DNA of 64,000 nucleotides from an archaeon (GCA_002688265.1 NZCK01000014.1:560-64559), one strand, 5' to 3'. Positions 756 through 19,141 are shown, counted from the stretch's first letter. The notes: generated by a model from the letters alone, not told the origin. Numbers and translations are program-made.

Positions 756-1310
756 TTATTTCTTAGATGATGGCATCAAACATTCCCCATTAGAACACCC
801 ATAGAGACAGTTAATAACTTTCAAATTGGCATTAAAGCTCCATTCTGACCAGTACAAAAGTCCCCCATAATAGTAAGGAAGTGCGCTCTCCATACAAGAA
901 TGTTCAATAATATTAACTCCACTATCACTCCCCACATATGTAGAAAAACCAATCCCTTGATCATCATATGTTGTATCCCATAATTCTGGATTATCAGTAA
1001 ATAAAACATCTGTATTAGTTAGGTCAGTTTCAACTGGCAAATTGGTACATACATCCGGGAAGGAATAAGAATTTGAACTCTCAGCAATTTCTAAAGTTAT
1101 CTCCCCATAATTATAAACATCATGTCCACTATCGGTATCTCTACAACTTCCAATTTCATTTAAACTAGTACTTACTTCCAAAGTATCCTTATCAGAGATA
1201 TGACCACTTACTTCTCCAACATAGTGCCCTTGCCCAGCTAAAGTTTCATCTAAATCTGCTCCAAAAAATGCTGCACCAATTACTACAATAATTGCAGTAA
1301 ACATGATCAC
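756..1310 (-). CDS. secreted or membrane-anchored Cys-rich acidic protein, last gene of the surface cluster
   Basis: N-terminal hydrophobic segment FTAIIVVIGAAFFG, acidic body, several Cys including C-terminal CLYGCSNGEC. Co-directional with 1386-7924. The track start is GTG; an in-frame ATG lies at 1304. Confidence 0.55.
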   Translation of the reverse strand: MIMFTAIIVVIGAAFFGADLDETLAGQGHYVGEVSGHISDKDTLEVSTSLNEIGSCRDTDSGHDVYNYGEITLEIAESSNSYSFPDVCTNLPVETDLTNTDVLFTDNPELWDTTYDDQGIGFSTYVGSDSGVNIIEHSCMESALPYYYGGLLYWSEWSFNANLKVINCLYGCSNGECLMPSSKK

Positions 1311-1385
1311 AAAAATATCTTTCTTATCTATCTTTAAGACCTCAAATTAATTTAAAAAAACAAAATAAATAAATAATCTTATTGT

Positions 1386-2315
1386 TTACTCTGCACTTTC
1401 TTTAACTCTAAGAGTCTCACTTACTATATCACGATAAGTATAGTCTAAAGTCAAAGCAATTGATTTGGTATACAAAGCATCTTCATCAAGTGCGTCTGCT
1501 AGTTGACAGATAATCTCTGCTGTCCCATCAACCATTCTGGCTTCTCCTTCACGTCCACCACTTTTACATTCCCAAGAGAGAGAATCTTCAAGAGTGTAAC
1601 TAACTTGACTAAACCTATCATCAAATTCTTCTCCAACGATGGTAGATTCACCTGTATCAACGTTACTGATACCTATTTTTAACAACATTATTCCTTTCCC
1701 ACCACTATCTTGTTCAACACTAGTTACCGTAATTGGTGCTCCAGAAACTGAATAAGTTCTTCCTTCTGAAACTGTACAAACTCTTTCATCACTAGAATCA
1801 CCTTTAAAACATACATCATTAACAATCAAATATGTTTTGTAATCAAATTCGTAATCAACATACCAAGTAAGATCTTGATATCCAACAATTACTGCATTAT
1901 ATGTTGCATAATCATTTGGAGTAAAACTAATTACTTCTTCATCTCCACTAGGGTTAAACTCTGAAATCTCTTCTATTGTCTCAGAATTAGATTTTTCCCA
2001 GGAAGGGATGTTGCTAAAATCTTCTTGTGCAGGCCCTAGTAGTTCTAATCGAACTTCTCCTGCTGCAACCGTGTGTTCTCCTTCATTTGTTACAATAAAT
2101 TCTAATGGAAAATCTTCAGTATCATAAATTGTGTAATATCCATCTTCCATGATACTCATGGGTTCAAAACTAACTTCAATTCCAGACATTCCTCCAATAA
2201 ATGCTCCTGGGCTAGTTGTGTCTAATTCGCTTGAATTTCCAGAACATGCTGCTAAAAATACACTCAATGCCAAAATTGAAATTATAATTGCTAATCTCTT
2301 AACCATATGTGCCAC
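1386..2315 (-). CDS. lipobox-type secreted protein with two beta-sandwich-like modules (paralog 1)
   Basis: Signal peptide ending in LAAC-SG. h-x-h-x-N-x-G motifs FIVTNEGEH and IGISNVDTGES. C-terminal strand LTLDYTY...TLRV is shared with the neighbouring ORFs. Confidence 0.75.
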   Translation of the reverse strand: MAHMVKRLAIIISILALSVFLAACSGNSSELDTTSPGAFIGGMSGIEVSFEPMSIMEDGYYTIYDTEDFPLEFIVTNEGEHTVAAGEVRLELLGPAQEDFSNIPSWEKSNSETIEEISEFNPSGDEEVISFTPNDYATYNAVIVGYQDLTWYVDYEFDYKTYLIVNDVCFKGDSSDERVCTVSEGRTYSVSGAPITVTSVEQDSGGKGIMLLKIGISNVDTGESTIVGEEFDDRFSQVSYTLEDSLSWECKSGGREGEARMVDGTAEIICQLADALDEDALYTKSIALTLDYTYRDIVSETLRVKESAE

Positions 2316-2411
2316 CTTCTTTTTTTAGTAATAATAATTATTATCTTTTAAACCAAGCGATTTTGTTATAAAAACTCTTCGGTTAAATTAAACAAAAATA
2401 AATTACTTTTT

Positions 2412-2478
2412 GTTCAGAATCATTCAGGCACTGGTCAGGCTTATTCCACTCCAAACTGCTGCGCCCACGATTCTGAAC
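2412..2478. repeat. intercistronic inverted-repeat element (10-bp perfect arms, GC-richer core)
   Basis: GTTCAGAATC at 2412-2421 is the exact reverse complement of GATTCTGAAC at 2469-2478. The 47-nt core is visibly GC-richer than the flanks. It lies between the stop of 2506-3453 and the start of 1386-2315. Confidence 0.6.
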
Positions 2479-2505
2479 TTTATTAAGAATAATATAATAA
2501 TATAA

Positions 2506-3453
2506 TCATGGTGTTGCAATTACCTGAACACTTTTCTGAGTGCTATCCATATATTTATAATCCAATGTAATTATTAATGGGGTTTCATATGCTGTTGTTC
2601 CTATTATATTAAAAGTACAAACAATTTTTCCAACATCATTACTTAATCTTAGAATTCCATCAGAAGGAGTACAAGAAACTAAACTTCCTCCTGTCATCTC
2701 CACACTATAACTTACTCGATCTAAATCATCATAGTCAAGGTTACTTTCTCCACAATTAGAAATGTCTGCATAAGGGCTTAGAACTCGTCCTCCCCCTCCG
2801 TTATGAACACTAATTTCAAAAACTGCTGTGTCACCGATCATATCTACTCCTAGATATGACACGCTTACTGGGCCACCTTGGCCACCACCCATTGAAACGT
2901 CTTGTGGAGTACATGCTTTTTGTTCAGAGGTTATTTGATAAAATAGTGGATCAACACAAATACTAGGGTTTGCCCATGTTTGATAATCATAACACCAAAC
3001 CAGATTCAAACTTGGTGAATATTCTAAGGTTCCATAAGGTAGAGAAATACTTGAAGAGCTATATTCTACTTGATTCCATCCCCCATCTAAATTGTAAACA
3101 TTTTTTCCGTCAACTGGACCACAACTTTGAACATAATCCACTCCCATTATTATGTTTGGATCAAAACCTGTTACTTGTAGATAACATTCTGTTGCTCCAA
3201 CATCATATGCTCCTTTGTTTTCAACTTCTAAGAGCATTACAAAATCACTCACATCATACATAGTGTATGGAGGATAGTCATTAACAAAATCTACATCTAT
3301 TCCTTGTGTCCCGCTTTGTACTTGAGAAAGGACGTTTGCAGTGCTATCAGCGTCTTCTCCTTGTGGTATAACTGAACAAGAACTTAAAAAAAGAGTTGAT
3401 ATTAGCAATAGTACAATTGCTGTTCTATATGAAAAACCATCCATCACAATCAT
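2506..3453 (-). CDS. lipobox-type secreted protein with two beta-sandwich-like modules (paralog 2)
   Basis: Signal peptide with LSSC-SV. Motifs LEVENKGAYDV and ISVHNGGGGRV. C-terminal ITLDYKY...VQV strand. Several Cys suggest extracellular disulfides. Confidence 0.75.
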   Translation of the reverse strand: MIVMDGFSYRTAIVLLLISTLFLSSCSVIPQGEDADSTANVLSQVQSGTQGIDVDFVNDYPPYTMYDVSDFVMLLEVENKGAYDVGATECYLQVTGFDPNIIMGVDYVQSCGPVDGKNVYNLDGGWNQVEYSSSSISLPYGTLEYSPSLNLVWCYDYQTWANPSICVDPLFYQITSEQKACTPQDVSMGGGQGGPVSVSYLGVDMIGDTAVFEISVHNGGGGRVLSPYADISNCGESNLDYDDLDRVSYSVEMTGGSLVSCTPSDGILRLSNDVGKIVCTFNIIGTTAYETPLIITLDYKYMDSTQKSVQVIATP

Positions 3454-3580
3454 TAGCGAAGCAATTTTAGTTAATAAAGCTTACGTTAATTTTTTTTAAA
3501 TTAACGAAGTTTGTTAATTTCATTAACATAACTTACTAAAATTTCAGGGATTTACGAACTTTGTTGATATTATCAACTCT

Positions 3581-4528
3581 TTACCTTGCTTTTGTAATAG
3601 TAAGCGTTTCTGTATCATACAATTTGTAATCATAAGATAAATCCAAATACAAGACTTTTTCCATAGCTGGTGTGTTTGGATCAAAAGTATATTCGCAATC
3701 TAAATCTACTGATTGTTCTCCTGAATCAAATTCATATGAATATCCGTTTGATTCACCTTCTCCTTCAATAAATTCACAAACTAAATCTTCAGCTGTTAAT
3801 TGTGCATTAACTACACTAATTTCTTCAACTTCACCCAAGCCTTTGTTTTCAATATGAAATAAGAAATATGCTTTCCCTAATCTTTCTGAAACTGTTTGTT
3901 CAAACCCACTTACAACTACTGGGCTATATTGGGAATTTGCTTGCACTTCACTTTCTGGATTTTCACAATTTCCATCAACCACATTGTACAGTGAAGGATT
4001 AATACAAATTTCTTGTTCTAATTCTGTGTTGTAATGAAACTTAGCTGTTGCAAACAAAGTTACTTCTAATTCACTGTTTTCTACAGGAATTTCATTAACG
4101 AAGGCATCGAATTCAAAAATGTCATCATCGATTGCAACATTTTCATTGTTATATCCTAGTAGTTTAATATTATCGATAGTATCTGTTTGCCATTCAACTA
4201 AACCATCACTGTATGCAACAGACATTGTTAATTCTCCTTGGGTTAAGTCTTGCGATCCTTGATTTTCTAGATAAATATAAACATAAAGATCACTGAATTC
4301 TTCTATTCTGTCTCTTGGACCAATTTCAAATTCAGTTATTGCTGGTCCAGCATAGCTAGATTCATAATCTAATTCTACAATGTTCCCTCGAACTTCATCA
4401 TCACTACTATTTCCTCCTGAGCAAGCTGTTAATGTGATAACTAGTAATAGAATGGATAATAACAAAACATATCTTAGAGGTTTTGTGATAAACTTTGAAT
4501 TAAGTTGTTGCTGATTCACTTTCTTCAT
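3581..4528 (-). CDS. lipobox-type secreted protein with two beta-sandwich-like modules (paralog 3)
   Basis: LTAC-SGGNSS lipobox. Motifs IYLENQGSQDL and FHIENKGLGEV. C-terminal LDLSYDYKLY...LTI. The track start at 4582 lies 83 nt inside the upstream gene. The internal ATG at 4528 (MKKVNQQQ...) reduces the overlap to 29 nt. Confidence 0.7.
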   Translation of the reverse strand: MKKVNQQQLNSKFITKPLRYVLLLSILLLVITLTACSGGNSSDDEVRGNIVELDYESSYAGPAITEFEIGPRDRIEEFSDLYVYIYLENQGSQDLTQGELTMSVAYSDGLVEWQTDTIDNIKLLGYNNENVAIDDDIFEFDAFVNEIPVENSELEVTLFATAKFHYNTELEQEICINPSLYNVVDGNCENPESEVQANSQYSPVVVSGFEQTVSERLGKAYFLFHIENKGLGEVEEISVVNAQLTAEDLVCEFIEGEGESNGYSYEFDSGEQSVDLDCEYTFDPNTPAMEKVLYLDLSYDYKLYDTETLTITKAR

Positions 4529-6479
4529 CAACTGTTTCTTCGACTGGTTCTTCTGTTGACTCTTCCTCTGCCACTGTATCATATATATCCACCTCCATTC
4601 TAAATTTTCCTTTTATTTGATATTTATAATCTACATTTGCTATAAAATTATGAAATGAAATCCCATAGTCTTCTACGGTGTCTTCAACAGATTCAAAAGA
4701 AACGAAACATGATCCTAAGAAGACAGAATCTCCTTCATTGTTATCTTCTTCGATGTATGTGTTTTGTCCATAAGCACAACTGTCGTCGTCTCCTTGAATT
4801 TCTAATTCTCCTAACTCGAGGGAATAAGAAACTATTTCTGTAATCGTTCCATCTCCAATATTTTCTATATTAGAAGAGAGTACTGGATAATCATCAAGTT
4901 CAATTATTTTTTCACCGATAGCAAAATTTATTGCCACAAATTCGTCTGCATAATATGCATCCCCATTTTTTCCGTCTCCACTAAAAAAAGCTGATAACAA
5001 TTGATATTGGGTTGCGTCTCGCATTGGATTTTCTTCATCATATTGTTCTACTACTGCTCGCTTTAAGTATGAATGAGTCTGCATATTGAAGTCCATAGTT
5101 AACTCTAGGTTATAGTCTCCGTTTAAGTTTTCGGTTGGAGAACAAATAAATTCGTATTCATCACTTTCAGTAATTAACATACTGCCTTCTTCATCTAGCA
5201 ATCCATGACTCACAATTCCAGTTACTGAAGAGTCGTCTCTACCTCTGCCTTCAAAATTACAAGCAACATCAATTTCGAATTCTTTTTCGAGAGGATTTTC
5301 AATTCTAACTTCAACTGGATACATTAGAGAATTTTTATTCTCAGTTATTGTTTTTATTTCATCATCAAAATAACCACCTTTAGTTATTTCAATGTCTACG
5401 TGTTGATCTAAATCTGAACTTACTTGTCCATCTGCTGAGTTTTCCCAGTTTTCTTGGTCTTCGTATACTTTAGCCACACATTCATCATGTGCTGAGCTAC
5501 CTTCATCATATCCTTGGTTATGGCAGTCGGCGCTAATTTCTGCTGCCTCTTTTCTTTCTTCAATACAAACTGCCAAATCATTCATTCTTCCTTCCTTAAA
5601 ACAATGCCAATATGAGACTATTGGATTTTCTGTTCCCGACAATTGCTCACGATATTCTTCTTGTGTTGAAGCGAAGGTTGATGCATCAGGCACTAAACTA
5701 TTAGAATCATAACCAACAGTTGGTATCATTGGAAGTAAAAACACAAACACTATGTATATTACTCCAAGAACATGTAATATTCGCATTAAAGCATTTATTT
5801 TTGATTCTTTGTCTGTTGTATCAATTGGGAAGGTCATTATTCCAAAGAACGCCCACCATGGCATGAATAAAACTAGACTTTGAACAAGATCAGTTATTGG
5901 AAGTCCAATTGTATCAATTAAGAAAGGGATTAATCCAATGTCTAAAAAGAAGAATACAACTGGGATAAATCCATACAGTTCTGGTTGTATGCCTTTTCCT
6001 TTTGTAACTACATCAATTATTATAAGAACAAATGCTGATATCGTCAAAAAATAAATTAAAAAACTAGGCATATAATTTGCTTTAAAATAAAAGTACCATA
6101 CACAAAAAATTAGCATTGGAAAAAATACAACTATCCTATCAACTTGCACTTTCTCGGCCAGAGCATAACCTGCCATTACGAATAACACTAATGATAAAAC
6201 AAAAATAATGGAGCTTGAATCTCCTAATATTGGGCGTAATAAAAATTGAAATGTCCCTAATATTATCATGATGATGGACATGTTTTTTACAGCATTACCT
6301 GCTTGAGTTAATGCGAAGTTTCCAGCAGCAACTGCACCACCTGCAACCGCACTTCCAGCAGCACCAGCAGAGGAAGCCAATTGTCCTCCCATAGCAGCGC
6401 CTGCAGCTCCCGCTACCACGTTAATATAATATTGTAAGAAATTCTCCTTCCTATAACTAGTACCAACTAAGGTTTCCAT
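4500..6479 (-). CDS. polytopic membrane protein fused to the cluster-specific two-module ectodomain
   Basis: Gly/Ala-rich N-terminus (AGAAGAAMGGQLASSAGAAGSAVAGGAVAAG), then about 7 hydrophobic helices. The C-terminal half carries VRIENPLEKEF and NIENIGDGT motifs and an NVDYKYQ strand homologous to ORFs 1386-4528. Acidic tail. Confidence 0.75.
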   Translation of the reverse strand: METLVGTSYRKENFLQYYINVVAGAAGAAMGGQLASSAGAAGSAVAGGAVAAGNFALTQAGNAVKNMSIIMIILGTFQFLLRPILGDSSSIIFVLSLVLFVMAGYALAEKVQVDRIVVFFPMLIFCVWYFYFKANYMPSFLIYFLTISAFVLIIIDVVTKGKGIQPELYGFIPVVFFFLDIGLIPFLIDTIGLPITDLVQSLVLFMPWWAFFGIMTFPIDTTDKESKINALMRILHVLGVIYIVFVFLLPMIPTVGYDSNSLVPDASTFASTQEEYREQLSGTENPIVSYWHCFKEGRMNDLAVCIEERKEAAEISADCHNQGYDEGSSAHDECVAKVYEDQENWENSADGQVSSDLDQHVDIEITKGGYFDDEIKTITENKNSLMYPVEVRIENPLEKEFEIDVACNFEGRGRDDSSVTGIVSHGLLDEEGSMLITESDEYEFICSPTENLNGDYNLELTMDFNMQTHSYLKRAVVEQYDEENPMRDATQYQLLSAFFSGDGKNGDAYYADEFVAINFAIGEKIIELDDYPVLSSNIENIGDGTITEIVSYSLELGELEIQGDDDSCAYGQNTYIEEDNNEGDSVFLGSCFVSFESVEDTVEDYGISFHNFIANVDYKYQIKGKFRMEVDIYDTVAEEESTEEPVEETVDEESESATT

Positions 6480-6554
6480 TCATCATCCTCTTATAGATAT
6501 ATTAAGACAAATATTCTAGCATATAAAAAGCTTAGTGTAAATGGCATAAATATT

Positions 6555-6690
6555 TTGGTTGCCATGTTCGCCTCTTTGCCGAAACATACAACAACTATTT
6601 CAAATTTTCACAAGCATTTTTCTGCACCTGTACAGAAAAATCCCTGCGCAGTGAAATGGAAGAGCTCGGCCTGGCTTACATGGCAACCAA
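6555..6690. repeat. intercistronic inverted-repeat element (13-bp perfect arms, nested hairpin)
   Basis: TTGGTTGCCATGT at 6555-6567 pairs with ACATGGCAACCAA at 6678-6690. An internal 9-bp hairpin pairs 6616-6624 with 6633-6641. The core is GC-richer than the flanks and is followed by (TAA)7 at 6693-6713. Confidence 0.6.
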
Positions 6691-6721
6691 GCTAATAATA
6701 ATAATAATAATAAAGAAAAAC

Positions 6722-7924
6722 CTACTCCAAATCAACCAACAATTCTCTAACTTCCAAGGTCTTACTTGGTTGTATTGAAATTGCATTATTTCCACTAGTT
6801 ACATAATCACTTATGTCAAAAGAATAACTTGAAGAGGTTGTATCAAAATGTCTTTTGTATCCATTAATACTTACATAACCTGCTTTGGTTTCTCCTTCAT
6901 CGGCAAATTCTAAAGTCACTTCCACAGTATCATCATCATTTAATACACTTTGTTCTTCTTCATATGTTAGTTGGAAATAATAAGTTGGATATTCTACATC
7001 AATTAAATCAGACTTAACTTCTAAGTTATACAACACATAATCCCCAGTATCAGTTGAGAAATGTAAAGTATTTTGTCCAACGAATAACATTGAAGGGTCA
7101 AGTTCTACATCTCCCATTTGAACGCTACAATCTGGACTCGCTGAATACAAAGTGTAAGCACTATTCAAAGTAATAATCATTGTTCCTGAAGTATCACTTG
7201 CACAATCTGGTTGGAAACTAAAGACTGCGGTTTCCATGTTTTCATATTCAGTGTCTGATATACTAAACACGCCTGTAGCCTCACGATGAGAATTATCTGT
7301 AACATCTGATACAATAATTAAAGATTCAATACTAATTTCATTACTGCTCCAAAAAGCAGCACCAGGAGATGACGCACTAAAAACTAACTCGTTATCTTCT
7401 TGAAGTAATTCTGTTGGTAGATCAATGGTTACACTTTCTTCTCCAGTAAATTCTTGTTGCAACAAACTTTCTCCGTTCAATGTTAAAGATAAACTTCCGC
7501 TTGAATCAACTACTCTAAAACTAAGTAATGTGTCATCAACCAGATCGACATCATCAATTCCAAAAGACACTTCTGCATCAGTTGAGCTAAAAACACTGCG
7601 TTTTGCAAAAAGACTGCTTCTCTCAGTGAGTGTTTGAACCTCTGTCTCTGTATAGATATGCACCGAAGCTAGGCTATGTTCCACTTCATCAACGCTTAAG
7701 TATTCTATTTTTCCTGGAAATTCTTCAAGTAATAATTCTCCAGAACTACCTGTGCTATCTGAATCAGAATCAATATCACCATCTAAGATGGCAGCTCTTT
7801 CTTCTGGACTTACTAAGATTACATAAGATACCAGCATTGCCCCAATAATTGCAACTAGAACTGCTGCAGCCGCTGCAGCTTGAGCTTTTTTAGCAAAACT
7901 TCTCTTTCTACCACCTAAAACCAT
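6722..7924 (-). CDS. secreted acidic protein with pilin-like (class III-like) signal peptide, first gene of the surface cluster
   Basis: N-terminus RKRSFAKKA-QAAAAAAVLVAIIGAMLVSYVILV has a basic n-region, K at -2, A at -1, Q at +1 and about 23 hydrophobic residues. This is the archaeal prepilin pattern. The remainder is acidic and Ser/Thr-rich. Confidence 0.7.
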   Translation of the reverse strand: MVLGGRKRSFAKKAQAAAAAAVLVAIIGAMLVSYVILVSPEERAAILDGDIDSDSDSTGSSGELLLEEFPGKIEYLSVDEVEHSLASVHIYTETEVQTLTERSSLFAKRSVFSSTDAEVSFGIDDVDLVDDTLLSFRVVDSSGSLSLTLNGESLLQQEFTGEESVTIDLPTELLQEDNELVFSASSPGAAFWSSNEISIESLIIVSDVTDNSHREATGVFSISDTEYENMETAVFSFQPDCASDTSGTMIITLNSAYTLYSASPDCSVQMGDVELDPSMLFVGQNTLHFSTDTGDYVLYNLEVKSDLIDVEYPTYYFQLTYEEEQSVLNDDDTVEVTLEFADEGETKAGYVSINGYKRHFDTTSSSYSFDISDYVTSGNNAISIQPSKTLEVRELLVDLE

Positions 7925-9299: not shown

Positions 9300-9607
9300 T
9301 TCCAAAAAAATTCACTAAAAAATCAAACAAAAAACTGCCAAAAACACGAATATAAAGTATATAAACTACCATAATTGCAAGCACATAAAAATCTTTTTCT
9401 CGTCGATAAAACCACTAACACCAAGGTCCAAAAATAACTTTGAAGAAACCACAACCTTTTAATAGTAGTGTTTGTTCCTTATAACTTAGTTACAAAAGAG
9501 GGTGAATTCCGAAGAAGGGTCTTCAAAAGAGGTGTTTTGAACTGTATATCCCGTTCTTCATTATTTGTTATTTGCGCCCTATTTAGTAAATGGGGAGGGT
9601 ATTAAAA

Positions 9608-10405
9608 ATGATCGTAAAAGAGGAATTATTAGCACAGTTAAGAAGATATTTCGATCTTAATTTGTATGAAGTTAAATTGTGGGCTGCTTTACTTAGTCGT
9701 GGCGTTTCAACAGCTGGAGAACTTTCTGACATTGCAGACGTTCCAAGATCTCGAAGTTATGATGTTCTTGAAAGTTTGGAGAAGAAAGGTTTCGTTGTTA
9801 TGAAAACAGGCAAGCCAATTAAATATATTGCAATTCCACCAAGTGAAGTTGTTGACCGTGTAAAGAAGAATATGCATTTGAATGCTCAAACAAAAATCAA
9901 CCGTTTGGATTCAATCAAAACTTCTCCACTATTAGTGGAATTAGAACAATTACACACAACAGGAATTTCTCTGATTGATCCATCAGAGATGACTGGAACC
10001 TTAAAAGGCCGTCATAACTTATACAACCACCTTGATTTCTTAATGAAAGGTGCAAAAAAATCTGTAAATATTATGACAACTGAGAAAGGTTTTATGCGAA
10101 AAGCTGAAGGTCTTAAAGCAAGTATGGAAAAAGCCAAAAAGCGTGGTGTAAAGATTAGAATTGCTGCTCCTTTAACTAAAGAGAACAAGCATATTGCTGC
10201 TGAATTAAAAGGTGTTGCAGAAGTAAAACATAACGCTAAGGTTAATTCCAGGTTTGTTACAGTAGATGCCGCTGACCTTGTTTTTATGACAATGGATGAC
10301 GGAGAAGTTCACCCTAGTTATGATTTAGGTGTTTGGGTAAAAACCCCTTACTTCGCGTCAAGTATGGACAGTATGTTTAATACTAATTGGGGCAATTTGA
10401 GATAA
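9608..10405 (+). CDS. TrmB-family transcriptional regulator
   Basis: N-terminal wHTH YEVKLWAALLSRGVSTAGELSDIADVPRSRSYDVLESLEKKGFV. GGAGGG lies about 9 nt upstream of the ATG at 9608. The track start at 9590 is an alternative. Confidence 0.8.
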   Translation: MIVKEELLAQLRRYFDLNLYEVKLWAALLSRGVSTAGELSDIADVPRSRSYDVLESLEKKGFVVMKTGKPIKYIAIPPSEVVDRVKKNMHLNAQTKINRLDSIKTSPLLVELEQLHTTGISLIDPSEMTGTLKGRHNLYNHLDFLMKGAKKSVNIMTTEKGFMRKAEGLKASMEKAKKRGVKIRIAAPLTKENKHIAAELKGVAEVKHNAKVNSRFVTVDAADLVFMTMDDGEVHPSYDLGVWVKTPYFASSMDSMFNTNWGNLR

Positions 10406-17255: not shown

Positions 17256-18026
17256 CTAATGCAAACCCATAACCTTACGTAAACCTAAGCTTAAAATCAA
17301 AGATACTACAATATAAAGTGCAAGCCATCCTGGGTTCCATCCAAAGATACTAAGCTCACCTAGTGGCTTTAATTTACTATATCCTACATTGATACTAGAA
17401 ACATCTGAATCAACAAACTTAACTTCTGTATCTGCATAATCAAGTTCACCTGAAGTTACCAAAACAGTAACTTCTTCTGAAGCCGAACCTGTTTCCACTG
17501 CAAGTATGTGTTCACCCACTGCTTTTGATTTTACTCGCCAAGTAACACTACCTTCAGAAATTGTTTGTACTGCTTCTGAACTACTAAACTCTGATTCTAA
17601 ATCCAAAACAAGTTGTGCTTGTCCACTTACACCTTCTGCAAATTCTGCCATGATTGTATAAGAGTCACCAACAGAAATTGGGTCATAAGCAAGTGCTCCA
17701 CTCATCCAACCAAAAATAAGTAAAATTGGAAGCATTGTAAACAAAGTTGGTTTCAATGAATGTTTCATATATTCCATATTGACTTTCATTGCTTCTTTTT
17801 GGACAGACATCATTTTCTCAGGGTTTTCCCTATGAGATTTCATTTCTGCTTGAAACTCTTTTTGACGACCCTTCAGATGCTTCATCTTGTCTTGGTCTGT
17901 CAAATATTTGTATGCTAGTGTAATAATTACTGTAATAACTGCTGCAATTATAACTATCCCTAGTGCTGGACTCCAATTTAAAAGTGGCCCAAAAATCGGA
18001 TCAAAAATCGGATCTAATATTGCCAT
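17256..18026 (-). CDS. DUF106 / EMC3-Oxa1-like membrane insertase homolog with extra ectodomain
   Basis: KHLKGRQKEFQAEMKSHRENPEKMMSVQKEAMKVNMEYMKHSLKPTLFTMLPILLIFGWM is the DUF106 coiled-coil plus TM signature. The track start at 18047 is TTG; an in-frame ATG is at 18026. Confidence 0.75.
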   Translation of the reverse strand: MAILDPIFDPIFGPLLNWSPALGIVIIAAVITVIITLAYKYLTDQDKMKHLKGRQKEFQAEMKSHRENPEKMMSVQKEAMKVNMEYMKHSLKPTLFTMLPILLIFGWMSGALAYDPISVGDSYTIMAEFAEGVSGQAQLVLDLESEFSSSEAVQTISEGSVTWRVKSKAVGEHILAVETGSASEEVTVLVTSGELDYADTEVKFVDSDVSSINVGYSKLKPLGELSIFGWNPGWLALYIVVSLILSLGLRKVMGLH

Positions 18027-18097
18027 AATATCAATTTTTCCTAACAACCACTTATAAAGCTTATGGTTTATTTATGACACTATTAAGAATTAAATAA

Positions 18098-19141
18098 TTA
18101 AGACTCAATTCTCTCTATTTTGTAGAATCCTCTACTTTCAACTTGTTCTTTAGTCAGATCTATTACTAATTCCCAAACAATTTCTCCAGAAGGGCTTACT
18201 TCAATTGCTCTTGTCGATCCAGAAACTAAATAATTACCATTAGACAATTTATTCACATCCCTCACTAATTGTTTTCGAGAATCACTCCAATCCCCTTCAT
18301 TATATTGCCAAATAATTTCATCAGTATCAATATCTAATTCCATTGCTGCAATATGAGCAGAATAATCATTTTCAGCATAACAATCTAACGGTTTTTGCGA
18401 CGCTACTGTTATTTGCCTTGTTCCTTCAATAATTGTTGGGTCATGTGATGAAAAAACTATCCCTTTTCCTATTTCATTTACTACATTTCCTTCTGGGTCA
18501 ACTTCAACAACCATATTAAAATTTCTTAAACTTACTAATGTATTTCCATTGTCCAATCTTCCAACTGCATTGGTATGTGTAAAACCGTCGCAAGAAATCT
18601 CTGCATAAGGTTCATAATCAAAATGTTCTCCTGCTTTCCAAAACCAGACCATTTCTCCTTCAGGTGTAATCTCTTTAACTTGAAAGTCTTCTGTTGTATC
18701 ATGCCCACCATAAGCTATCAGAATATTTCCATTATCTAAGCGATCGGCATCATGTGATATTTTATTATCATAATACTCCCAAACAATTTCTCCTCCTCTC
18801 TCAATTTCAAATACACCATATCCTGGTGCCAATAATTGTAAATTTCCATTATCTAAGAGTTCTACATCAAATCCAGGGTTAAGATAATCTTGCATTTCCA
18901 AACTAATTTCATGTTCCCATAGAATATTTCCTTCCATGTCTATCTCTAGTATTCTGGGATAATCTGTACTAAATCTATCAAAAAAGATTGTAGTTCCGTC
19001 TTGAGCTTTCTCTGGATTATAGACTGCTATGTATAGATTTTCATCAACTTGCGAATAGAAGCTTTCAGTTGAGCATGCACTAACAAACAAACTAATTAGA
19101 ATTAATACTAACAAGACTAGAACAACCTTTCCTCTTTTCAC
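18098..19141 (-). CDS. lipobox-type beta-propeller protein (arylsulfotransferase/ASST-like repeats)
   Basis: Signal peptide with VSAC-ST. A repeated LDNGN motif occurs four times (LLDNGNLQLL, RLDNGNILIA, RLDNGNTLVS, KLSNGNYLVS). GTG start. Confidence 0.65.
   Translation of the reverse strand: MKRGKVVLVLLVLILISLFVSACSTESFYSQVDENLYIAVYNPEKAQDGTTIFFDRFSTDYPRILEIDMEGNILWEHEISLEMQDYLNPGFDVELLDNGNLQLLAPGYGVFEIERGGEIVWEYYDNKISHDADRLDNGNILIAYGGHDTTEDFQVKEITPEGEMVWFWKAGEHFDYEPYAEISCDGFTHTNAVGRLDNGNTLVSLRNFNMVVEVDPEGNVVNEIGKGIVFSSHDPTIIEGTRQITVASQKPLDCYAENDYSAHIAAMELDIDTDEIIWQYNEGDWSDSRKQLVRDVNKLSNGNYLVSGSTRAIEVSPSGEIVWELVIDLTKEQVESRGFYKIERIES

What the first reader, a model, noticed from the sequence alone, without database searches (positions are those of the whole stretch)
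756..7924. Six-gene co-directional cell-surface module built from one repeated two-module unit
Six minus-strand genes all encode exported or membrane proteins. They are a pilin-like signal-peptide protein (6722-7924), a polytopic membrane protein (4500-6479), three lipobox proteins (3581-4528, 2506-3453, 1386-2315) and a Cys-rich anchored protein (756-1310). Four of them share one architecture. It has two acidic modules, each with an h-x-h-x-N-x-G motif (FIVTNEGEH, LEVENKGAY, IYLENQGSQ, FHIENKGLG, VRIENPLEK, NIENIGDGT), reminiscent of CARDB/NEW3-type Ig-like sandwiches. It ends in a conserved strand [LV]-[DS]-Y-x-Y followed by alternating hydrophobics (LTLDYTY..TLRV, ITLDYKY..VQV, LDLSYDY..LTI, NVDYKYQ..MEV). 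I recognise no enzyme, ATPase or known S-layer or archaellum component. A conserved terminal beta-strand on paralogous sandwich subunits, a pilin-like partner and a membrane-embedded family member would fit a polymerising or anchored surface structure. Donor-strand-type filaments or a host-attachment apparatus of an episymbiotic archaeon are examples. That functional reading is inference.
Basis: partly seen in the sequence, partly recalled or inferred. Interest (0 to 1): 0.8.

Follow-up and report, generated by a model that had tools for sequence, protein, structure and literature searches.

The report
Conserved Woesearchaeal cell-surface protein complex genes
Five of the six genes encode a membrane-anchored set of surface proteins of unknown function, conserved about as strongly as housekeeping genes across one order of tiny symbiotic archaea (Woesearchaeota) and matching no described protein family.

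Summary
The six minus-strand ORFs are real. C, D and E are clear paralogues (HHalign probability 99.5-99.9%). Each is a lipobox lipoprotein with two Ig-like beta-sandwiches and shares an N-x-G motif in each domain, two Cys pairs and a terminal Y-x-Y strand. B is a 7-TM protein with a Cys-braced helical stalk and the same two-sandwich ectodomain; its link to C/D/E rests on fold and a weak profile match (E about 3e-4). A is unrelated. It has an archaellin/pilin-type N-terminus ([KR][GA]Q followed by a hydrophobic helix) and three beta-rich repeats. F occurs only in very close relatives and is not a conserved part.

The "module" is two conserved operons joined in this lineage. A-B-C sits beside Pelota and D-E beside RFC in most Woesearchaeota. 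D and E are as conserved as PheRS-alpha. A, D and E almost completely lack N-glycosylation sequons. A, C, D, E and F (not B) use ribosomal-protein-like codons. Pfam, NCBIfam, PDB sequence searches and Foldseek give nothing beyond generic tandem Ig-like folds. No pilus ATPase, usher or enzyme domain lies nearby in the genes examined.

Best reading: a constitutive, fixed-composition envelope complex, either structural or an uptake base. A donor-strand filament or a variable host adhesin is less likely. Function is inferred, not shown.

The parts
6722..7924 (-). Gene A (400 aa). It has a short basic leader, a conserved [KR][GA]Q and a hydrophobic helix, which together form a class III (archaellin/pilin-type) signal or anchor (residues 1-38, nt 7811-7924). 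Three beta-rich repeats follow: d1 at nt 7289-7747, d2 at nt 7001-7288 and d3 at nt 6725-7000.
   Evidence: ORF. N-terminal motif conserved in about 30 orthologues. d1~d2 HHalign 96%, E 3.6e-9; d3 only weak. No Pfam or PDB match in any of 31 members. Orthologues are 36-74% identical.
6480..6721 (-). A-B intergenic spacer (242 nt). It holds a T-rich tract just after the A stop codon and a TTTTTATAT box about 40 nt upstream of the B start, which could be an independent archaeal promoter for B.
   Evidence: Read directly from the sequence; not tested. In relatives L004/L084 a 748-aa gene is inserted here, so A and B need not be co-transcribed.
4500..6479 (-). Gene B (659 aa). Regions: an Ala/Gly-rich, probably cytoplasmic N-terminus (nt 6282-6479); a 7-TM domain (residues 67-251, nt 5727-6281) with invariant E167, D180 (mid-TM5) and P207-W208-W209 (mid-TM6); a helical stalk with 4 invariant Cys (residues 266-346, nt 5442-5684); beta-sandwich 1 (nt 5049-5429); beta-sandwich 2 ending in Y618-x-Y620 (nt 4581-4958); and an acidic tail.
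   Evidence: Alignment A2. AF2 model, pLDDT 72 overall and 80-93 in the ectodomain. Topology. Foldseek. The TM-domain profile finds only 133 clusters in 1.84 billion representatives, all with one architecture.
3581..4528 (-). Gene C (315 aa from the ATG at 4528; the longer ORF starts at 4582). It is a lipobox lipoprotein (LTAC) and a two-sandwich paralogue of D and E. It travels with A and B in all Woesearchaeota examined.
2506..3453 (-). Gene D (312-315 aa). It is a lipobox lipoprotein (LSSC) with a conserved N-terminal helix, two Ig-like sandwiches (residues 52-167 and 196-312) and 8 invariant Cys. D and E are the two most conserved members (47-83% identity).
   Evidence: alignment A1. AF2 pLDDT 88.4, pTM 0.80. 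Also.
1386..2315 (-). Gene E (about 306-309 aa). It is a lipobox lipoprotein (LAAC) and a two-sandwich paralogue. It lies next to D in almost all of the 82 loci that contain D (adjacent or within a gene or two).
756..1310 (-). Gene F (182-184 aa). It is a small acidic protein with 6 Cys and an N-terminal hydrophobic segment. It is lineage-specific and not part of the conserved unit.
   Evidence: No homologue in 82 related loci. Its 90%-identity cluster has 4 members, including a Tara Oceans scaffold. Its codon usage resembles that of the module.

Best explanation
A-E encode a Woesearchaeota-specific, constitutively needed cell-envelope complex of fixed composition.

Two sub-assemblies are conserved as separate operons in most members of the order:
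- A-B-C comprises a pilin-type-anchored three-domain protein, a 7-TM protein carrying a disulfide-braced stalk and two Ig-like sandwiches, and a lipoprotein paralogue.
- D-E comprises two further lipoprotein paralogues.
In this lineage the two operons have been joined.

Proposed mechanism:
- The ectodomains are exported. A is held by its N-terminal helix, B by 7 TM helices, and C/D/E by a lipid on the lipobox Cys.
- Conserved disulfides stabilise them.
- They pack into a tight, unglycosylated hetero-oligomer on the outer face of the membrane.
- This assembly serves as a structural layer or scaffold, with B as its membrane-embedded base.

Shown: genes, anchor motifs, predicted folds, paralogy, synteny, conservation, sequon depletion and codon bias. 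Inferred: physical association, stoichiometry and the structural role.
For: - Three kinds of extracytoplasmic anchor are conserved across orthologues.
- The two-sandwich unit is homologous in C/D/E and is fold-equivalent in B, with shared NxGxG, Cys and YxY motifs.
- In every locus examined each of C, D and E appeared once. D lies next to E in almost all of 82 loci, and A-B-C is intact in most of the 41 loci fetched with B. The two operons are fused in this subclade only.
- In the same genomes D and E (47-83% identical) are as conserved as PheRS-alpha and more conserved than Pelota. A matches Pelota.
- N-X-S/T sequons are strongly depleted. The window ectodomains hold 2 against 14.3 expected. 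Per protein, family D has 0.01 against 2.42, E 0.08 against 1.34 and A 0.19 against 3.30. Thirty other window proteins show 39 against 49. This fits surfaces buried in protein contacts.
- Codon usage of C, E, D, F and A lies in the ribosomal-protein range, giving 5 of the top 8 non-reference genes. This fits abundant proteins.
- Even numbers of conserved Cys occur in the mature parts: D 8, E 4, C 4.
- Lipobox lipoproteins and the AliA lipidation enzyme are reported for DPANN (PMC12462473).
Against:
- Known archaeal S-layer proteins are usually larger, glycosylated and fast-evolving. These proteins are small, sequon-free and slowly evolving.
- B's TM domain has an invariant intramembrane Asp and a Pro-Trp-Trp motif. 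That suggests more than an anchor.
- The codon-bias signal is modest, and the reference set comes from the same strand.
- The B model's TM region has only moderate confidence (pLDDT 55-85).
Confidence: 0.42

Rival explanations
1. This is an uptake or transfer machine. B's 7-TM domain would be a new channel, transporter or membrane enzyme. The tethered Ig-like lipoproteins (C, D, E) and A would capture or hand over a ligand such as lipids or cell-wall sugars, which these metabolically reduced archaea must import.
For: - B has an invariant mid-membrane D180, E167 at the membrane face and P207-W208-W209 in a kinked helix.
- The TM domain never occurs without the ectodomain, and the architecture is fixed in 133 clusters.
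- Housekeeping-level conservation fits an essential supply function.
- A-B-C is followed on the same strand by a GpsA-type G3P dehydrogenase and a GH3/NagZ-like hydrolase in many genomes.
Against: - No ATPase, binding-protein fold or known transporter fold was detected.
- No hydrophobic-cavity fold hits (LolA, ML or Lpt-like) appear among the Foldseek matches for D.
- The neighbouring genes are housekeeping genes whose order may be conserved for unrelated reasons.
Confidence: 0.22
2. This is a host-contact (adhesion or junction) complex of an episymbiont. The Ig-like ectodomains would bind a conserved host surface component and B would organise the contact site.
For: - The lineage is DPANN.
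- Ig-like, integrin-like and WxLIP-like fold matches are typical of adhesins.
- A pilin-type protein with a large head (A) could reach outward.
Against: - D, E and A are conserved at housekeeping level across an order found in marine, groundwater and sediment habitats. Host-recognition proteins usually diversify.
- Each family appeared once per locus and no hypervariable regions were seen in the alignments examined.
Confidence: 0.15
3. This is a strand-exchange filament, analogous to type V or chaperone-usher pili. The lipoprotein paralogues would polymerise by donating the conserved C-terminal Y-x-Y strand to the next subunit, with B or C as the anchor and A as the tip.
For: - Lipoprotein precursors with two beta-sandwiches and a conserved C-terminal strand, encoded as tandem paralogues, resemble type V pilins (recalled knowledge, not tested).
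- PapD-like chaperones appear among B's Foldseek hits with probability 0.94-0.99 but TM-score of at most 0.31.
Against: - The Y-x-Y strand is modelled with high confidence inside its own sandwich. This is not decisive, because monomer models always fold it back.
- B carries the same strand while being a 7-TM protein.
- There is no usher, no processing protease and no assembly ATPase in the cluster or in the neighbouring genes examined.
- No Pfam FimA/Mfa hit was found.
- Pilins usually evolve fast, whereas D and E do not.
Confidence: 0.08
4. There is no common function. These would be merely neighbouring genes for unrelated exported proteins.
For: No interaction was shown. A-B are separated by 242 nt here and by an inserted gene in L004/L084.
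Against: - A-B-C and D-E adjacency is conserved over sequence divergence down to 22-47% identity.
- The paralogy links C (operon 1) to D/E (operon 2) and to B's ectodomain.
- The two operons have fused in one subclade.
Confidence: 0.05

Closest known systems
Type V pili of Bacteroidota (FimA/Mfa1 superfamily)
   Same: Subunits are made as lipobox lipoproteins, consist of two beta-sandwich domains, are encoded as tandem paralogues with anchor and accessory members, and use a C-terminal strand for assembly. This comparison rests on recalled knowledge.
   Different: No sequence-family match was found. The organism is an archaeon with a single membrane. No processing protease is present. One paralogue here is fused to a 7-TM domain. 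Conservation is far higher than is usual for pilins. Strand exchange was not tested.
WxL/Csc cell-surface complex clusters of Enterococcus and Lactobacillus (WxLIP/DUF916 proteins)
   Same: Both are gene clusters encoding several non-enzymatic surface proteins that assemble into a complex. WxLIP has tandem Ig-like domains with a membrane anchor and appears among D's Foldseek hits (9i25_C, 9i1y_A).
   Different: The matches are weak (E about 3e-3 to 8e-3, TM-score about 0.2). There are no WxL domains and no LPXTG protein. The anchoring modes differ, and the host lineage is archaeal.
Archaeal S-layer systems (two-component SlaA/SlaB; lipid-anchored Haloferax S-layer glycoprotein)
   Same: Both are extracellular arrays built from Ig-like beta-sandwich domains, tethered by a membrane or lipid anchor, abundant and constitutive. 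This comparison rests on recalled knowledge. The module's codon bias is consistent with abundance.
   Different: The subunits are small (about 30-70 kDa). There are five different chains. N-glycosylation sequons are almost absent, whereas S-layer proteins are typically glycosylated. Evolution is slow. No known S-layer family hit was found.
Archaeal class III signal-peptide surface proteins (archaellins, type IV pilins, Sulfolobus bindosome sugar-binding proteins)
   Same: A's N-terminus (short basic leader, [KR][GA]Q, about 20 hydrophobic residues) fits the prepilin-peptidase substrate pattern used by these proteins. The bindosome precedent shows that such signals can anchor large globular non-filament proteins (recalled knowledge).
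   Different: There is no archaellin or pilin domain. There is no FlaI/PilB ATPase, FlaJ/PilC platform or peptidase in the scanned parts of the window or in the neighbouring genes of relatives. Cleavage was not shown.
CARDB / NEW3 / DUF11-type Ig-like domains
   Same: They share the h-x-h-x-N-x-G strand motif and the sandwich fold. A DUF11 protein appears among the BFVD hits.
   Different: hmmscan of every family member finds none of these Pfam families, even at E 0.05-1.

Membership tests
Lipobox (bacterial-type) lipoproteins: C, D, E | Signal peptide ending in [LVI][ASTVI][GAS]C, with Cys about 15-35 residues from the start | tested here: met
   Present in 27/34 C (plus 5 relaxed), 72/75 D and 73/75 E; median Cys position 21-23; invariant Cys column.
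Lipobox (bacterial-type) lipoproteins: C, D, E | Actual lipid modification, and presence of the archaeal lipidation enzymes AliA/AliB in the genome | not testable with these tools
   There is only a literature statement that AliA (arCOG02177) occurs in DPANN (PMC12462473). The genome beyond the window was not available.
Class III signal peptide / type IV pilin-like proteins: A | Short charged leader, [KRDE][GA] cleavage motif, then a hydrophobic stretch of about 20 residues | tested here: met
   [KR][GA]Q-AA(G)AAVLLAIIAGLL is conserved in nearly all of 31 orthologues, 4-8 residues from the likely start.
Class III signal peptide / type IV pilin-like proteins: A | Associated assembly ATPase, membrane platform or prepilin peptidase in the locus | tested here: not met
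   None was found among the called neighbours in relatives or among the 20 window ORFs scanned. Such genes may lie elsewhere in the genome.
CARDB (PF07705) / NEW3 (PF10633) / DUF11 | Significant match to the Pfam model | tested here: not met
   No hit at E<=1 for the six window proteins, nor at E<=0.05 for 42 D-family and 24 B-family members.
Chaperone-usher pilus subunits / PapD-like chaperones | Incomplete Ig fold completed by a donor strand; usher and chaperone genes in the operon | tested here: not met
   The D and B models show complete sandwiches with their own C-terminal strand. PapD-like hits have a TM-score of at most 0.31. No usher-like gene is present. Strand exchange itself was not tested.
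Type V pilins (FimA/Mfa) | Match to the FimA/Mfa Pfam families; protease-dependent maturation | tested here: not met
   No Pfam match. Maturation could not be tested.
Known archaeal S-layer protein families | Match to an S-layer Pfam or NCBIfam model; typical N-glycosylation | tested here: not met
   No family hit. Sequons are depleted 7-fold or more instead of present.
Known intramembrane enzymes or transporters (CPBP/myxosortase, Lgt/Lsp, GT-C and others) for B's TM domain | Significant profile or fold match | tested here: not met
   Only scattered hits to single members at E>=0.002 (Pfam) or >=0.016 (NCBIfam). The PDB profile search found nothing. No TM-domain target appears in the Foldseek top 50, but the query was the full-length model, so the TM domain alone was not searched.

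The most novel reading that the evidence does not exclude
The five proteins form an order-wide, essential envelope machine unique to Woesearchaeota. Its 7-TM subunit would be a new family of membrane channel or enzyme that works with tethered Ig-like lipoproteins, for example as the apparatus through which these lipid- and nucleotide-auxotrophic archaea take material from their surroundings or hosts.
Probability: 0.15. Interest if true: 0.85.

Novelty: new variant of a known kind. Interest (0 to 1): 0.55.

Why it matters
Woesearchaeota are among the most widespread DPANN archaea. No envelope or host-interaction component of theirs has been defined, and most of their genes are "hypothetical".

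This work identifies five protein families, absent from Pfam, NCBIfam and the PDB, with three properties:
- They are confined to this lineage.
- They are conserved like translation genes.
- They are predicted to sit on the cell surface as a fixed complex.

That gives concrete targets for cryo-ET assignment, metaproteomics, antibody or FISH-based cell capture, and heterologous reconstitution.

The near-total avoidance of N-glycosylation sites and the fusion of a new 7-TM domain to a lipoprotein-type ectodomain are specific, testable oddities.

Tried and rejected
- Pfam and NCBIfam scans of the six proteins and of every member of alignments A1 (D), A2 (B) and A3 (A) gave no consistent family.
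- Profile searches of PDB sequences with A1, A2 and A3 found nothing.
- Foldseek of the D and B models against PDB, and of D against BFVD, returned only generic tandem Ig-like, arrestin, transglutaminase-barrel, integrin and PapD-like matches with TM-scores of about 0.1-0.3.
- Internal duplication within D (N-terminal against C-terminal sandwich) was not detectable by HHalign.
- A showed no relationship to B-E.
- F was tested as a conserved member and rejected: it is absent from 82 loci.
- I searched for a pilus ATPase, prepilin peptidase or usher near the cluster in the window and in relatives, and found none.
- The myxosortase-like hit in B (E 0.11) was not reproduced in other members.
- Literature searches for a described Woesearchaeota surface or lipoprotein complex found nothing specific.
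- One script timed out and one Pfam call failed on a wrong frame. Both were repeated successfully.
Full report
**Observation**

The window is a low-GC (about 34%) archaeal sequence. All six ORFs lie at the stated coordinates on the minus strand: A 6722-7924, B 4500-6479, C 3581-4528/4582, D 2506-3453, E 1386-2315 and F 756-1310. The flanking genes are housekeeping genes. They include Pelota, a TrmB-like regulator, PheRS alpha and beta, SecY, a YidC/EMC3-like insertase, SecD/F, aRF1 and PAN. None of the six proteins matches a Pfam or NCBIfam family.

**Paralogy**

- BLASTP among the six links D to E over their full length (E 3e-11) and C to D (E 1e-4).
- Using orthologue alignments from 82 related loci, HHalign gives C~D 99.9% (E 6e-34), D~E 99.8% and C~E 99.5%, all full length.
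  - the lipobox Cys;
  - N79-x-G81 and G96 in sandwich 1;
  - the C166/C181 pair;
  - N218-x-G220-x-G222 in sandwich 2;
  - the C261/C279 pair;
  - Y299-x-Y301 in the last strand (D numbering).
- D has two extra Cys pairs: 8 Cys in the mature protein, against 4 each in C and E.
- The AF2 model of D is confident (pLDDT 88.4, pTM 0.80). It has a signal helix, a conserved helix at residues 35-46 and two beta-sandwiches.
- The two sandwiches within one protein show no detectable sequence similarity to each other.

**B**

- The alignment of 24 homologues has invariant E167, G170, P173, D180, G182, P207-W208-W209 and G213 in the membrane part. It also has six invariant Cys and Y618-x-Y620 outside.
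- The AF2 model (pLDDT 72; ectodomain 80-93) contains about 7 TM helices, a helical stalk at residues 266-346 and two sandwiches at 351-477 and 508-633.
- The topology is N-terminus in, C-terminus out. D180 lies mid-TM5 and PWW lies mid-TM6.
- The ectodomain aligns collinearly but weakly with the lipoproteins. The match to E has E 2.4e-4 over 206 columns. The match to a merged C/D/E profile has E 3e-4, pairing IENxGxG, two Cys and YDY.
- Foldseek returns the same generic target classes for B and D (transglutaminase C-barrels/protein 4.2, arrestin/VPS26, integrin alpha and the STT3 soluble domain), all with TM-scores of about 0.1-0.3.
- I accept B's ectodomain as a divergent copy of the same unit, with moderate confidence.

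**A**

- A is unrelated to B-E.
- Its N-terminus is conserved as a short basic leader, [KR][GA]Q and an Ala-rich hydrophobic helix. This is the archaellin/pilin (class III) pattern.
- The rest consists of three beta-rich repeats. d1~d2 is supported at 96% (E 3.6e-9), and d3 only weakly.
- No family or PDB match exists.

**F**

F has no homologue in any related locus. It occurs only in a 4-member 90%-identity cluster, which includes a Tara Oceans 0.1-0.22 um mesopelagic scaffold. It is not part of the conserved unit.

**Distribution and synteny**

- D has more than 215 homologues at 50-82% identity. All are unnamed, and the named sources are Woesearchaeota/Nanoarchaeia MAGs.
- The A-B-C-D-E order beside Pelota occurs only in about a dozen close relatives.
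- In the other roughly 70 genomes only a D-E pair is present at the locus, usually next to the RFC small subunit.
- B homologues from more distant genomes sit in an A-B-C triplet, divergent from Pelota, without D/E.
- A metagenome scan shows the intact triplet in most of the 41 loci fetched with B. D-E is attached to it in only three of them (L084, L090, L117).
- One MAG, judged by locus-tag prefix, carries both modules at separate loci (P0107 and P0136).
- The "six-gene module" is therefore two conserved operons fused in this lineage, plus one lineage-specific gene.
- The fusion and the C-D/E paralogy argue that the two operons work together.
- A profile of B's TM domain finds only 133 clusters among 1.84 billion representatives. 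All full-length hits are 545-792 aa with the domain at the N-terminus, and 94 of 101 keep the terminal Y-x-Y. The only taxonomically named member is from Nanoarchaeia.

**Selective signatures**

- Identity to the window proteins, compared within the same genomes:

| Protein | Identity to window |
|---|---|
| D | 47-83% |
| E | 44-79% |
| A | 36-74% |
| B | 25-51% |
| C | 22-57% |
| Pelota | 27-76% |
| PheRS-alpha | 36-68% |

- D and E are thus conserved like a tRNA synthetase.
- N-X-S/T sequons are nearly absent from the ectodomains. The window proteins hold 2, against 14.3 +/- 3.4 expected.
- Sequons per protein in the families:

| Family | Observed | Expected |
|---|---|---|
| D | 0.01 | 2.42 |
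| E | 0.08 | 1.34 |
| A | 0.19 | 3.30 |
| C | 0.33 | 1.76 |
| B ectodomain | 1.05 | 2.27 |

- Controls show no such depletion. B's cytoplasmic and TM part has 1.05 against 0.73, and 30 other window proteins have 39 against 49.
- A codon adaptation index built on the window's ribosomal-protein cluster places C, E, D, F and A within the ribosomal range. They are 5 of the top 8 non-reference genes. B is at the median.

**Interpretation**

- The evidence fits a constitutive, probably abundant hetero-oligomeric envelope complex of fixed composition, with tightly packed and unglycosylated surfaces.
- It is anchored in three ways: A's N-terminal helix, B's 7 TM helices, and lipid on C, D and E.
- I favour a structural layer or scaffold (confidence 0.42).
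- The invariant intramembrane Asp and PWW of B keep an uptake or transfer machine as a serious rival (0.22).
- A host-contact complex (0.15) is disfavoured by the slow evolution.
- A strand-exchange filament (0.08) is disfavoured by the integral placement of the Y-x-Y strand, by its presence in a 7-TM protein, and by the lack of any usher, protease or ATPase. It was not directly tested.
- Lipobox lipoproteins and the AliA lipidation enzyme are reported for DPANN (PMC12462473).

**Comparison with known systems and novelty**

- The closest analogues are type V pili, WxL/Csc surface complexes, two-component or lipid-anchored S-layers, and class III-signal surface proteins.
- None passes a membership test (see the membership table).
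- The folds are common, but the five families and their combination are undescribed. The literature searched holds no description of them.
- I rate it a new variant of a known kind: a membrane-anchored, multi-protein Ig-like surface complex.

**Limits**

- No multimer prediction was available.
- B's TM domain was not searched on its own by fold.
- No expression data were available.
- Only 64 kb of the genome was visible.

Noticed in passing
window 756-7924; families from L001-L123: The ectodomains of A, D and E almost completely lack N-X-S/T glycosylation sequons (for example family D: 0.01 observed against 2.42 expected per protein). Other window proteins are not depleted (39 against 49). The cause is unexplained. 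It suggests selection to stay unglycosylated.
   Followed up: partly
window 9590-10405 (+): The TrmB-like regulator next to Pelota is 72-91% identical across Woesearchaeota. That is more conserved than PheRS-alpha (36-68%) or Pelota (27-76%) in the same genomes. This is unusual for a transcription factor.
   Followed up: no
L088 9733-12928; L106 9784-13442; L113 10363-11523: In many Woesearchaeota the A-B-C operon is followed on the same strand by a bacterial-type NAD(P) glycerol-3-phosphate dehydrogenase (GpsA) and a GH3/NagZ-like glycosidase. It is unclear whether these are functionally linked to the module.
   Followed up: partly
L084 4463-6709 (also L004): A 748-aa gene is inserted between A and B in the closest relatives. 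By eye it looks like a UvrD/Rep-type helicase (GAGSGKT Walker A motif) with a C-terminal HRDC-like end. This was not verified by a family search.
   Followed up: no
window 756-7924: The ectodomains are extremely acidic (D+E 13-20%, K+R 3-6%). F's cluster includes a Tara Oceans station 37 mesopelagic 0.1-0.22 um scaffold. Both point to a marine, ultra-small-cell origin.
   Followed up: no
window 1386-4528, 756-1310, 6722-7924: Codon usage of C, E, D, F and A falls in the range of the window's ribosomal-protein genes (CAI 0.67-0.72, against a median of about 0.63). B does not.
   Followed up: partly
L001 14584-16569 (-); L002 14057-16039 (-): A roughly 660-aa single-TM protein with a transglutaminase core (PF01841) lies a few genes downstream of E in relatives of the window's subclade. 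The matching region lies beyond the left end of the window.
   Followed up: no
window 17256-19141 (-): An arylsulfotransferase-like (beta-propeller) 347-aa protein with 0 sequons (2.5 expected) sits between a YidC/EMC3-like insertase and SecY.
   Followed up: no
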